A stretch of 64,000 nucleotides of DNA. Source: Escherichia phage YJin-2024a. Under the pieces are notes generated by a model. The model did no database searches. It saw only the letters and a program-made list of their open reading frames with translations, and was not told where the DNA came from. A program made the position numbers and the translations under genes. Numbering within the stretch: position 1 is the stretch's first letter; every line of letters begins with the position of its first letter. The stretch is from the sequence record PP534475.1; one strand, given 5' to 3'. Positions 51,435 to 52,207 of this stretch are shown piece by piece.

Positions 51435-51884
51435 TTAAGTTTTAGTGACAACAGGTTTATAGAATGTATGTCCCTTAATCTTAGTTGTTTTCTTAAATTT
51501 CTTTGTCCAGTAAGGTTTATCTTTACCACTATGGAAGTATAGTGCTCCATATGTAGGATCTTGTGGTAAATCAACGTAGTATATCACTCTAGCTAAATTC
51601 TTAGCGGTTTGCCAAGCCTCATCAGTTTTATCAACTTTTGGTCTCTTAGATACCCAAGAGAACTGGTTAGACTGATATACTACTTTACAGTAGGAATCTG
51701 GGAATTTACCGGAGTTTACACGGTTTTTAGTAACATGTGCAATCGCCGTCATTCCCTTTATGCCCTCACCACGACTCTCGAAATAGATATTTTTAGCAAT
51801 GCAATCTATTTCTTTTGCATCGTGCGATGCCTGACTACTAAAGCTGAAGGTAAGGGCAGCTACTAAAAGCAAAGCTGCCTTCAT
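51435..51884 (-). CDS. secreted cell-wall hydrolase, SleB-like
   Basis: Signal peptide MKAALLLVAALTFSFSSQA; NIYFESRGEG resembles the SleB-type hydrolase motif. Confidence 0.55.
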   Translation of the reverse strand: MKAALLLVAALTFSFSSQASHDAKEIDCIAKNIYFESRGEGIKGMTAIAHVTKNRVNSGKFPDSYCKVVYQSNQFSWVSKRPKVDKTDEAWQTAKNLARVIYYVDLPQDPTYGALYFHSGKDKPYWTKKFKKTTKIKGHTFYKPVVTKT

Positions 51885-51889
51885 TCTTT

Positions 51890-52207
51890 TTACTCCTGCC
51901 AATCATATTCAACACGATTGGGATTTTCTTTATACCCTAAGTCAAGCAAATCATTACGCATAGTTTGCTTAGCTACTGGGTTCGAGGTTACTAGTACCAC
52001 TTTCTTTGGTCTCTGCCCAAATTCTAAGAGTAAACGAAGAATTTGATAACCTTCCATACCATCTACAGCTAAGTCATTATCCATATAAATGAAGTGGCCT
52101 GTGGTATCAGTTTTATTCAGAAACTCTACAGCGGCTTCTGGGGTTCGAATGATAATGTCCATTCCGTGAAGATTACGCACATCATCAATCAAAATATGAA
52201 AAGTCAT
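51890..52207 (-). CDS. hypothetical protein, possibly receiver-domain-like
   Basis: ILIDDV ... MDNDLAVDGMEG ... VVLVTS pattern; weak. Confidence 0.35.
   Translation of the reverse strand: MTFHILIDDVRNLHGMDIIIRTPEAAVEFLNKTDTTGHFIYMDNDLAVDGMEGYQILRLLLEFGQRPKKVVLVTSNPVAKQTMRNDLLDLGYKENPNRVEYDWQE

What the first reader, a model, noticed from the sequence alone, without database searches (positions are those of the whole stretch)
51435..52207. Secreted SleB-like cell-wall hydrolase co-transcribed with a receiver-like small protein, separate from the lysis cassette
51435..51884 has a signal peptide and a NIYFESRGEG motif resembling SleB-type peptidoglycan hydrolases. It lies about 20 kb from the holin and M15 endolysin genes and directly downstream of a 105 aa protein with a receiver-domain-like pattern. 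A second exported wall hydrolase in the early region could serve entry, periplasmic remodelling or lysis timing rather than end-point lysis.
Basis: partly seen in the sequence, partly recalled or inferred. Interest (0 to 1): 0.5.

Follow-up and report, generated by a model that had tools for sequence, protein, structure and literature searches.

The report
Exported SleB-like wall hydrolase of T5-like phage
This is the already-annotated second cell-wall hydrolase of T5-like phages (T5 gene T5.083) and its small neighbour T5.084: the sequence calls are correct, but the gene pair is ordinary and long known, and only its role in infection remains unmeasured.

Summary
On the minus strand, 51435..51884 encodes a 149-aa protein with an N-terminal signal peptide. 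It has a full-length Pfam Hydrolase_2 (SleB/CwlJ) domain (E=3e-25) and a predicted SleB-type fold, and the catalytic-motif Glu36 is invariant. The 105-aa gene 5 nt upstream (51890..52207) is a receiver-fold protein, but of the cREC family. That family is predicted to be a cytoplasmic cyclic-phosphate esterase, not a signalling regulator.

The window is a Tequintavirus, 100% identical here to Salmonella phage vB_Sen-E22. The genes are T5.083 and T5.084. T5.083 has been annotated as a cell wall hydrolase homolog in the T5 st0 GenBank record, and its distance from the holin was noted in print in 2012 and 2024.

The hydrolase is near-core in T5-like phages: 520 records carry it, against 526 with the T5-type holin. 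The pairing with cREC is lineage-specific. It is split in My1, interrupted by a homing endonuclease in one phage, and absent in Klebsiella phage IME260.

The most likely role is a Sec-exported accessory murein hydrolase, dispensable in a T5 knockdown screen. Novelty is low.

A conserved, strongly structured 360-nt non-coding element just upstream was noticed in passing.

The parts
52238..52266 (-). Sigma-70-type promoter (TTGCTA, 17 nt, TATAAT) 31 nt upstream of the cREC ATG; member of the T5 early-promoter family
   Evidence: Consensus scan, 10 of 12 matches. Aligns to the promoter annotated upstream of T5.084 in NC_005859: both hexamers are identical and all 5 substitutions fall in the spacer. 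The ~60-nt promoter module recurs at about 10 other sites in the window at 72-85% identity.
51890..52207 (-). cREC gene (105 aa; T5.084 homologue): stand-alone divergent receiver-fold protein with no signal peptide
   Evidence: Pfam cREC_REC E=1e-14 and phrog_1479 E=7e-30. AlphaFold2 pLDDT 92.8; best PDB matches are receiver domains (DesR 4LE0 and others, TMq ~0.57). D8, D43, N44, D45, T74 and N76 are invariant and D9 nearly invariant across 22 homologues.
51893..51897 (-). AGGAG ribosome-binding site for the hydrolase, inside the last codons of cREC, with 8 nt between it and the ATG
   Evidence: Read directly from the minus-strand sequence.
51435..51884 (-). Exported SleB/CwlJ-type catalytic-domain-only murein hydrolase (149 aa; T5.083 homologue, 97% identical)
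   Evidence: Pfam Hydrolase_2 E=3.4e-25. phrog_938 'endolysin' E=1e-29. PDB 4F55/4FET by sequence and by fold, TM 0.71-0.79 and rmsd 2.4-2.9 A, model pLDDT 90.5. 97% identity to T5.083.
51828..51884 (-). Signal peptide (residues 1-19: MK, hydrophobic core AALLLVAALTFSF, then SQA|S)
   Evidence: Sequence features. Most of the 38 homologues, down to 34% identity, keep a basic start, a hydrophobic core and a site with alanine at position -1 (SHA|T, SYA|S, VQA|Q, VVA|K, IEA|S ...). No dedicated signal-peptide predictor was available.
51777..51779 (-). Codon for Glu36 of the YFESRGE motif, the presumed catalytic glutamate
   Evidence: Invariant in 38 homologues. Aligned with the first Glu of YGESRGE in SleB 4F55/4FET. 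That this Glu is the catalytic residue of SleB is from my own knowledge of the SleB structure papers.
51398..51426 (-). Next promoter (TTGCTT, 17 nt, TATAAT), homologue of T5 promoter P-D/E33, immediately after the hydrolase stop codon; marks the downstream boundary of the gene pair
   Evidence: Aligned to the T5 feature annotated 'promoter P-D/E 33'; hexamers conserved. No terminator-like site in 50600..52700.
30567..31633 (-). For comparison only: the canonical lysis cassette (EndoT5-type L-Ala-D-Glu peptidase 30567..30980 and T-type holin 30977..31633)
   Evidence: PDB 2MXZ E=1.3e-90. Pfam Phage_holin_T E=4.8e-113. Spanin-like ORFs lie at 33154..33881, matching the spanin annotations in phage HMD-7.

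Best explanation
The window comes from a T5-like phage (Tequintavirus). Genes 51890..52207(-) and 51435..51884(-) are the homologues of T5.084 and T5.083.

Identity of the hydrolase (shown by sequence and fold, except activity):
- T5.083 is a single-domain enzyme of the SleB/CwlJ (Hydrolase_2) family.
- By homology it is a lytic-transglycosylase-type murein hydrolase that uses Glu36.
- It is preceded by a classical cleavable-type Sec signal peptide.

How it most likely works (inferred):
- It is transcribed from a T5 early-type promoter as the second gene of a bicistronic unit.
- It is exported to the periplasm independently of the holin.
- There it acts as an accessory murein-degrading enzyme that supplements the canonical lysis system 20 kb away (T-holin, M15 L-Ala-D-Glu peptidase, spanins).
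- It is probably harmless until the holin fires and the endolysin attacks the wall.
- It is near-universal in T5-like phages, yet not individually required under laboratory conditions.

The upstream gene:
- It encodes a cytoplasmic cREC protein, a divergent receiver fold predicted to be a cyclic-phosphate esterase involved in RNA or NAD-related processes.
- It shares the promoter, but most probably not the function.
For: Identity of the hydrolase:
- Pfam Hydrolase_2 over the full profile.
- SleB catalytic domains are the only significant PDB matches, both by sequence and by fold (TM 0.71-0.79).
- Glu36, Y34, R55, Q74 and W77 are invariant in 38 homologues.

Export:
- A signal-peptide pattern with alanine at -1 is kept in most of the family members aligned.
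- A signal peptide was also reported for the Vequintavirinae homologue CB7_83, which was toxic when expressed in E. coli. Its relative CR3_087 has been implicated in lysis (PMC7344957).

Operon anatomy:
- A promoter conserved with T5, a 5-nt gap, an embedded ribosome-binding site, and no terminator-like site.

Evidence for a selected function:
- 520 phage records carry a hydrolase at 60% identity or more, against 526 with a T5-type holin at 60% or more.

Accessory and dispensable:
- In the CRISPRi-ART T5 screen, T5.083, T5.084 and lys (T5.040) were all 'Not Fit', whereas the holin T5.041 was 'Fit' (PMC11879866, supplementary file 16).
- The holin result suggests the exported enzyme alone does not give productive lysis.

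cREC is not coupled to the hydrolase:
- The hydrolase is present but cREC is absent from the whole genome of Klebsiella phage IME260.
- In My1 the two genes are 2.7 kb and five genes apart.
- An HNH homing endonuclease sits between them in locus L026.
- In Vibrio phages nt-1 and the KVP40 type, cREC has no hydrolase within 4 kb.
- Distant hydrolase homologues lie among nucleotide-metabolism genes with no cREC nearby.
- Nearly all of the 150 listed cREC relatives (222 cluster representatives in total) are stand-alone proteins of about 100 aa. The longer ones checked carry no wall-hydrolase domain.
- The cREC family definition is in PMC7824862.
Against: - No muralytic activity, export or signal-peptide cleavage has been measured for this protein or for T5.083.
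- An exported active hydrolase made early should endanger the cell. How it would be kept in check is unknown.
- SleB and CwlJ act at muramic-delta-lactam (PMC13556211). To my knowledge E. coli and Salmonella walls lack this modification, so the substrate and the bond cleaved may differ.
- The T5 knockdown screen is insensitive: many structural and replication genes also scored 'Not Fit'. 'Dispensable' is therefore weak evidence, and redundancy with lys is not shown.
- The early timing rests on synteny with the T5 map and on promoter similarity, not on transcript data for this phage.
- No dedicated signal-peptide predictor was run.
Confidence: 0.6

Rival explanations
1. Periplasmic function unrelated to end-point lysis. 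In this view the exported enzyme remodels the wall during infection, for example to hinder DNA injection by superinfecting phages, to alter envelope mechanics, or to release muropeptides.
For: - It sits among early and nucleotide-metabolism genes rather than beside the holin, in T5-like phages and also in unrelated phages.
- In rV5-like phages it lies directly upstream of rIIA/rIIB.
- Its export does not depend on the holin.
- Knockdown had no fitness effect in single-infection laboratory culture.
Against: - No direct evidence supports this role.
- Homologues are reported as toxic on expression or implicated in lysis (PMC7344957).
- In phage pf16 the authors propose the Hydrolase_2 protein as the endolysin (PMC5587285).
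Confidence: 0.2
2. cREC and the hydrolase form one functional module. In this view the receiver-like protein senses a nucleotide signal and controls the synthesis, export or activity of the hydrolase, in loose analogy to the sleB-ypeB operon, where the partner protein keeps SleB inactive.
For: - The two genes are immediately adjacent in 26 of 30 IMG/VR loci, with a 5-nt gap and an embedded ribosome-binding site.
- SleB itself is controlled by the product of a neighbouring gene (PMC13556211).
Against: - cREC has no signal peptide or membrane segment, whereas the hydrolase is exported.
- The pairing is broken or absent in My1, IME260, locus L026 and Vibrio phages.
- No fusions with wall hydrolases were found among the 150 listed cREC relatives.
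- The cREC family is linked in the literature to NAD and RNA-repair contexts.
- No PepSY- or YpeB-like neighbour is present.
Confidence: 0.07
3. It is the phage's main endolysin, as PHROG-based annotation ('endolysin') implies.
For: - phrog_938 'endolysin' E=1e-29.
- Many GenBank records label it 'endolysin'.
Against: - The window has an EndoT5-type peptidase overlapping the holin gene.
- The SleB-like gene lies 20.5 kb away from the holin.
- It scored 'Not Fit' on knockdown.
Confidence: 0.05
4. It is a virion-associated or entry lysin that opens the wall for DNA injection.
For: It is a peptidoglycan hydrolase distinct from the lysis cassette.
Against: - It has a cleavable-type signal peptide and is a small single-domain protein.
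- It lies in the early region, not the structural-gene region.
- It is encoded on DNA that enters only at the second-step transfer, so it cannot help its own genome enter.
- To my knowledge, the T5 tape-measure protein pb2 carries the entry muralytic activity.
Confidence: 0.03

Closest known systems
Phage T5 gene T5.083 (T5p081, 'cell wall hydrolase homolog') and T5.084 (T5p082)
   Same: - 97% (hydrolase) and 96% (cREC) amino-acid identity.
- Same gene order, same 5-nt junction and same flanking promoters.
- The DNA is 100% identical to Salmonella phage vB_Sen-E22.
   Different: Nothing of substance; this is an orthologue in another Tequintavirus.
Bacillus SleB / CwlJ germination-specific cortex-lytic enzymes (PDB 4F55, 4FET)
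   Same: The catalytic-domain fold and the YxESRGE motif with the presumed catalytic Glu.
   Different: - It lacks the N-terminal peptidoglycan-binding domain. The TIGR02869 match covers only profile positions 79-201 and scores 50 bits against a cut-off of 236.5.
- It has no YpeB partner.
- It has a Gram-negative periplasmic signal peptide.
- To my knowledge the host wall lacks the muramic-delta-lactam that SleB and CwlJ require (requirement).
Signal-peptide SleB-like proteins of Vequintavirinae/Certrevirus phages (CB7_83, CR3_087)
   Same: - 40% identical catalytic domain (rV5-like phage DrSchubert) and 46% (phiTE).
- N-terminal signal peptide, located away from a classical lysis cassette.
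- The phage also carries a separate peptidoglycan hydrolase.
   Different: - The gene neighbourhood differs: a candidate class II holin overlaps CB7_83, and rIIA/rIIB lie next to it in rV5-like phages.
- There is no cREC.
- The Cys28/Cys66 pair of the T5-type subfamily is not kept.
Sec-exported and SAR endolysins (Oenococcus phage fOg44 Lys44; P1 Lyz, phage 21 R)
   Same: A murein hydrolase that reaches the periplasm or wall through the Sec system without needing holin holes. In those systems the enzyme stays latent until the membrane is depolarised (my own knowledge).
   Different: - The catalytic family is different.
- Here the N-terminus looks like a cleaved signal peptide (13-residue Leu/Ala/Val core plus SQA|S), not a Gly/Ala-rich releasable anchor.
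- The phage also has a full holin, cytoplasmic endolysin and spanin set.
cREC (cyclic-phosphate processing receiver) domain, Pfam PF20274, defined by Iyer et al. 2021
   Same: A profile match above the cut-off, a receiver-like fold, and conserved acidic residues at the ends of strands 1 and 3.
   Different: In T5-like phages it is a stand-alone gene next to a wall hydrolase and the tRNA region, rather than next to the RNA ligases, NAD-processing enzymes or WYL proteins described for the family. Its biochemical activity is a prediction only.

Membership tests
Pfam Hydrolase_2 (SleB/CwlJ catalytic domain) | Profile match above the curated cut-off over the whole domain | tested here: met
   89 bits against a cut-off of 27; profile positions 1-100 of 100; E=3.4e-25.
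Pfam Hydrolase_2 (SleB/CwlJ catalytic domain) | SleB-type catalytic-domain fold | tested here: met
   AlphaFold2 model pLDDT 90.5. The only significant PDB matches are 4F55/4FET, TM 0.71-0.79 and rmsd 2.4-2.9 A over about 120 columns.
Pfam Hydrolase_2 (SleB/CwlJ catalytic domain) | Conserved catalytic glutamate in the Y-x-E-[SA]-R-G-E motif | tested here: met
   Glu36 is invariant in 38 homologues and aligns to YGESRGE of SleB.
Pfam Hydrolase_2 (SleB/CwlJ catalytic domain) | Peptidoglycan-cleaving activity | not testable with these tools
   Only indirect evidence: toxicity on expression of the homologue CB7_83, reported as data not shown (PMC7344957).
SleB proper (NCBIfam TIGR02869 equivalog) | Full-length architecture with an N-terminal peptidoglycan-binding domain; score above the equivalog cut-off | tested here: not met
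   50.4 bits against a cut-off of 236.5. Only profile positions 79-201 are matched.
SleB proper (NCBIfam TIGR02869 equivalog) | Operon partner YpeB (PepSY domains) | tested here: not met
   The Pfam scan of the five neighbouring gene products (T5.081, T5.082, T5.084, T5.085 and T5.087 homologues) shows no PepSY or YpeB match.
Canonical holin-dependent endolysin | Encoded in the lysis cassette next to the holin, with no export signal | tested here: not met
   It lies 20.5 kb from the holin and has an N-terminal signal peptide.
SAR (signal-anchor-release) endolysin | Uncleaved, weakly hydrophobic Gly/Ala/Ser-rich N-terminal membrane segment | tested here: inconclusive
   The 13-residue Leu/Ala/Val core followed by SQA|S fits a cleaved signal peptide better. 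No predictor or experiment was available. A 159-aa subgroup of homologues does look SAR-like.
Pfam cREC_REC (PF20274) | Profile match above the cut-off; receiver-like alpha/beta fold; conserved Asp residues | tested here: met
   55.4 bits against a cut-off of 27. pLDDT 92.8 with receiver domains as the best PDB matches. D8, D43 and D45 invariant, D9 nearly invariant.
Pfam cREC_REC (PF20274) | Genomic association with NAD-processing or RNA-repair genes | tested here: inconclusive
   Neighbours here are the hydrolase, DUF7616, a YqeY/GatB-like protein and the tRNA region. In phage nt-1 a TROVE-like RNA-binding protein lies nearby. Sir2 genes lie about 15 kb away in the related phage HMD-7.
Two-component response regulator | Receiver domain with a partner histidine kinase and/or an output domain | tested here: not met
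   It is a 105-aa stand-alone domain. The best Pfam match is cREC, not Response_reg. The family is reported never to occur with histidine kinases (PMC7824862). Nearly all of the 150 listed relatives (222 in total) are stand-alone.

The most novel reading that the evidence does not exclude
The exported SleB-like enzyme may be a latent glycan-strand cleaver, placed in the periplasm in advance, that becomes active only at lysis.

Two triggers are possible:
- Holin-induced membrane depolarisation releases it from restraint.
- The M15 L-Ala-D-Glu peptidase strips the stem peptides and creates its preferred substrate. This would echo SleB's requirement for peptide-free muramic-delta-lactam.

Lysis in T5-like phages, and in other virulent Gram-negative phages with exported Hydrolase_2 genes, would then be a sequential two-enzyme demolition of the wall rather than the work of one endolysin.

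The knockdown pattern is compatible with this reading but does not show it: holin 'Fit', while both hydrolases are individually 'Not Fit'.
Probability: 0.15. Interest if true: 0.5.

Novelty: already known. Interest (0 to 1): 0.2.

Why it matters
As a scan finding it matters little. The gene pair is conserved, annotated and already discussed in the literature.

The residual biological question is real but modest. About 520 T5-like genomes, and many unrelated virulent phages of Gram-negative bacteria, keep a second, holin-independent, exported wall hydrolase away from the lysis cassette. Why they do so, and how the cell survives its early export, is not known.

An answer would refine models of lysis control. 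It could also supply a small periplasm-active muralytic enzyme for engineering.

The cREC neighbour is one of many phage proteins whose predicted cyclic-phosphate esterase activity has never been tested.

Tried and rejected
Checks that argued against a cREC-hydrolase link:
- The IMG/VR scan with a cREC alignment found only T5-like and Vibrio schizoT4-type loci. The pairing is confined to Markadamsvirinae-type phages.
- A search of 1.84 billion representative proteins with cREC found no fusion to a wall hydrolase. One 1442-aa hit was a spurious repeat match.

Searches that returned nothing useful:
- PADLOC gave no match for either protein.
- NCBIfam gave no match for cREC, DUF7616 or the YqeY-like protein.
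- A PDB sequence search with cREC gave only spurious repeat-protein hits.
- Rfam gave nothing above threshold in 50700..52700. Sub-threshold snoR83, Hrs13 and group I intron hits were dismissed.

Literature checks that led nowhere:
- A full-text search for T5.083, T5.084, T5p083 and T5p084.
- The phiR2-01 proteogenomics paper.
- The HIDEN-SEQ preprint, which has no T5 gene data.
- The SleB structure paper PMC3415495 is not held.

Readings rejected:
- The TTG start at 51902 (rejected on the ribosome-binding site and on homologue N-termini).
- The plus-strand ORFs overlapping the two genes (51609..51866, 51918..52046, 52094..52231), which have no support.

Could not be done:
- The Cys28-Cys66 distance could not be measured because model coordinates are not exposed. 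The proposed periplasmic disulfide is inference only, and the Cys pair is not kept in rV5-like homologues.
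Full report
WHAT THE WINDOW IS

The 2.6 kb around the finding is 100% identical to Salmonella phages vB_Sen-E22 and SaI_NFG_5581. It is 80% or more identical to 446 T5-like phage records. The closest well-annotated relative, phage HMD-7, is classified as Demerecviridae, Markadamsvirinae, Tequintavirus. The window carries 23 tRNA genes on the minus strand and the typical T5 early-region gene order.

THE OBSERVATION

Both genes lie on the minus strand.

The hydrolase gene, 51435..51884:
- It encodes 149 aa beginning MKAALLLVAALTFSFSSQA|SHD, with NIYFESRGEG at residues 32-41.
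- It matches Pfam Hydrolase_2 over the entire profile (E=3.4e-25, 89 bits against a cut-off of 27) and phrog_938 'endolysin'.
- It matches the catalytic domains of Bacillus SleB, PDB 4F55 and 4FET, with YFESRGE aligned to YGESRGE.
- An AlphaFold2 model (pLDDT 90.5) finds only those SleB domains as significant PDB matches (TM 0.71-0.79).
- In an alignment of 38 homologues reaching down to 34% identity, Y34, E36, G44, R55, C66, Q74 and W77 are invariant and C28 is nearly so.

The upstream gene, 51890..52207:
- It encodes 105 aa and matches Pfam cREC_REC (E=1e-14).
- Its model (pLDDT 92.8) is closest to receiver domains such as DesR, GacS D1 and NarL.
- D8, D43, N44, D45, T74 and N76 are invariant and D9 is nearly so.

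OPERON ANATOMY

- The cREC stop codon (51892-51890) is followed by 5 nt and then the hydrolase ATG (51884).
- An AGGAG ribosome-binding site lies inside the end of cREC.
- A TTGCTA-17-TATAAT promoter sits at 52266..52238.
- This promoter aligns with the one annotated upstream of T5.084. Both hexamers are identical and all five differences fall in the spacer.
- The ~60-nt promoter module recurs at about ten other sites in the window, so it belongs to the T5 early-promoter family.
- Directly after the hydrolase stop codon comes the homologue of T5 promoter P-D/E33.
- No terminator-like site was found in 50600..52700.

Co-transcription of the pair is well supported by this anatomy, although no transcript data exist for this phage.

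EXPORT

- The N-terminus has a basic start, a 13-residue Leu/Ala/Val-rich core, and SQA|S.
- Most of the 38 aligned homologues keep the same pattern, with alanine at position -1.
- More distant phage homologues in rV5-like phages, PAK_P3 and pf16 also begin with a hydrophobic segment.
- A signal peptide was independently reported for CB7_83 (PMC7344957).
- I had no dedicated predictor, so cleavage is inferred.

RELATION TO THE LYSIS CASSETTE

- The canonical cassette lies 20.5 kb away. It comprises an EndoT5-type L-Ala-D-Glu peptidase (PDB 2MXZ, E=1e-90), an overlapping T-type holin, and spanin-like ORFs (HMD-7 annotation).
- The T5 lysis genes themselves lie in the 'early region' of the map (PMC3326045). 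Location in the early region therefore does not distinguish the SleB-like gene from them.

IS THE PAIRING FUNCTIONAL?

I tested this in several ways.

Adjacency among 30 IMG/VR loci encoding cREC:
- In 26 loci the hydrolase follows immediately.
- In one locus (L026) an HNH_3 homing endonuclease gene lies between the two genes.
- In Pectobacterium phage My1 the hydrolase is 2.7 kb and five genes away.
- In two Vibrio T4-like jumbo phages there is no hydrolase within 4 kb. In phage nt-1 the neighbours are instead a TROVE-like RNA-binding protein and an RNase H-like protein.

Other tests:
- Klebsiella phage IME260 (Sugarlandvirus) keeps the hydrolase at the syntenic position but has no cREC anywhere in its 123-kb genome.
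- Distant hydrolase homologues sit in phage contigs among Thy1, Metallophos, UvdE and ligase genes, with no cREC.
- A search of 1.84 billion representative proteins found 222 cREC relatives. Nearly all of the 150 listed are stand-alone proteins of about 100 aa, and the longer ones carry no wall-hydrolase domain.
- The family was defined as a receiver variant never found with histidine kinases. It is linked to NAD and RNA-repair contexts and predicted to open cyclic phosphates (PMC7824862).
- cREC has no export signal, so the two proteins work in different compartments.

I conclude that they share a promoter in one phage lineage, and probably not a function.

HOW WIDESPREAD, AND HOW IMPORTANT?

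- In the phage collection, 520 records carry a hydrolase at 60% identity or more, 526 carry a T5-type holin at 60% or more, and 397 carry cREC at 60% or more.
- The hydrolase is therefore near-core in T5-like phages, while cREC is less constant.
- In the CRISPRi-ART knockdown screen of T5, T5.083, T5.084 and the canonical endolysin lys were all 'Not Fit', whereas the holin was 'Fit' (PMC11879866, supplementary file 16).
- This fits an accessory enzyme that cannot replace the holin, and it is compatible with redundancy between the two hydrolases.
- The screen also called many structural and replication genes 'Not Fit', so the evidence is weak.

MOST LIKELY MECHANISM

Shown:
- A SleB/CwlJ catalytic domain with an intact active-site motif.
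- A signal-peptide-type N-terminus.
- A bicistronic arrangement behind a T5-type promoter.
- Near-universal conservation in T5-like phages.

Inferred:
- Sec export and signal-peptide cleavage.
- Lytic-transglycosylase chemistry on ordinary peptidoglycan.
- A supplementary role in wall breakdown at lysis.
- Latency until the holin and endolysin act.

SleB and CwlJ need muramic-delta-lactam (PMC13556211). To my knowledge enteric cell walls lack it, so the substrate preference must differ. This leaves room for the speculative idea that peptide-stripped glycan made by the M15 peptidase is the preferred substrate.

MEMBERSHIP

- It is a member of the Hydrolase_2 domain family.
- It is not SleB proper: 50 bits against a cut-off of 236.5, no N-terminal binding domain, and no YpeB partner.
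- It is not a canonical cassette endolysin, and it is probably not a SAR endolysin.

NOVELTY

- The T5 st0 GenBank record already annotates the gene as 'cell wall hydrolase homolog (PF07486)', and its neighbour as similar to KVP40.0304.
- The AKFV33 paper (2012) lists 'cell wall hydrolase SleB' among the early-region genes.
- Guzel et al. (2024) explicitly remark on SleB-domain 'endolysins far from holin' in T5-like Salmonella phages.
- Recent GenBank records name the neighbour 'cyclic-phosphate processing receiver domain-containing protein'.
- Hydrolase_2 is recognised as a common catalytic domain of lysins from phages of Gram-negative bacteria (PMC8223927).

The finding is correct but already known. 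Only its physiological role is open.

SEEN IN PASSING

The 442-nt gap upstream of cREC (52208..52649) is more conserved than the genes on either side:
- 50-nt windows show 0.9-1.0 identity, against 0.74-0.95 (mostly 0.78-0.88) in the coding sequence.
- It is 92.5-100% identical in 30 loci and 88% or more in most of 482 phage records.
- It has no ORF of 30 aa or more outside the promoter.
- It folds far better than shuffled controls on the coding strand (z=-5.0, against -3.15 on the other strand).
- A ~20-bp closing helix contains G-U pairs.
- There are a few compensatory changes, including A-U to G-C at the base of that helix.
- It has no Rfam match and is unannotated in T5.

It may be a stable or cis-acting RNA, and it deserves its own look.

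Noticed in passing
window 52277..52639 (minus strand), within the 52208..52649 gap between the phrog_1491 gene and cREC: A ~360-nt non-coding element that is more conserved than the flanking genes (0.9-1.0 against mostly 0.78-0.88 identity per 50 nt; 88% or more in most of 482 T5-like records). It is absent from My1 and IME260. It is strongly structured on the coding strand (MFE -98 kcal/mol, z=-5.0), with a ~20-bp closing helix containing G-U pairs and a few compensatory changes. It has no Rfam match and is unannotated in T5. It is a candidate stable or cis-acting RNA.
   Followed up: partly
window 50421..50492 (minus strand): A tRNA-like element found by Rfam (34.2 bits, above the gathering score of 29) but missed by ARAGORN. 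It lies in the ORF-poor stretch 49919..50750, which corresponds to the T5 'RNAX, stable RNA with unknown functions'.
   Followed up: no
L026:4324-4788 (IMG/VR UViG_2706796127); L031/L032:3485-4306: HNH_3 homing endonuclease genes target this locus. One is inserted between cREC and the hydrolase, and there the N-terminal two-thirds of the hydrolase is replaced by a diverged (~69% identical) variant. Another is fused in frame upstream of a diverged cREC, giving a 273-aa ORF that GenBank annotates as 'intein-containing'. Further homing endonuclease insertions occur in the upstream gap in phages bobsandoy and falkor.
   Followed up: partly
T5 genes T5.040, T5.041 and T5.083 (window 30567..31633 and 51435..51884): In the published CRISPRi-ART T5 screen the holin is 'Fit', but both wall hydrolases (lys and the SleB-like gene) are individually 'Not Fit'. 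This pattern would fit redundancy, but it could equally reflect the low sensitivity of the screen.
   Followed up: partly
homologues P0079, P0086, P0089, P0093, P0095 (159-179 aa); PAK_P3 gp151 (L044:2318-2881): A subgroup of the phage Hydrolase_2 family has a Ser/Thr-rich, weakly hydrophobic N-terminal segment with no obvious alanine at -1. This looks more like a signal anchor or a SAR domain than a cleaved signal peptide.
   Followed up: no
L046:2402-4881 (Escherichia phage DrSchubert, rV5-like): In rV5-like phages the exported SleB-like gene overlaps the start of rIIA, which is followed by rIIB. These are genes classically tied to lysis and membrane-integrity phenotypes.
   Followed up: no
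window 52650..53288 (minus strand); also 48862..49809 (minus strand): Automatic names here look doubtful. The 212-aa phrog_1491 product, labelled 'tail fiber protein', lies in the early region and has no significant Pfam match (best E=0.15). The 315-aa protein annotated 'lipoprotein' (T5.080 homologue) is an SPFH/Band 7 protein with an N-terminal membrane segment. In My1 and IME260, genes labelled 'metallopeptidase' match the Rv2179c-like exonuclease family instead (weakly in IME260).
   Followed up: partly
window 50753..51366 (minus strand): Immediately downstream of the hydrolase, behind the P-D/E33-type promoter, lie a 56-aa DUF7616 protein and a YqeY/GatB-like protein annotated 'tRNA amidotransferase'. 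The tRNA region follows. This RNA-related neighbourhood suits the cREC prediction better than the hydrolase does.
   Followed up: no
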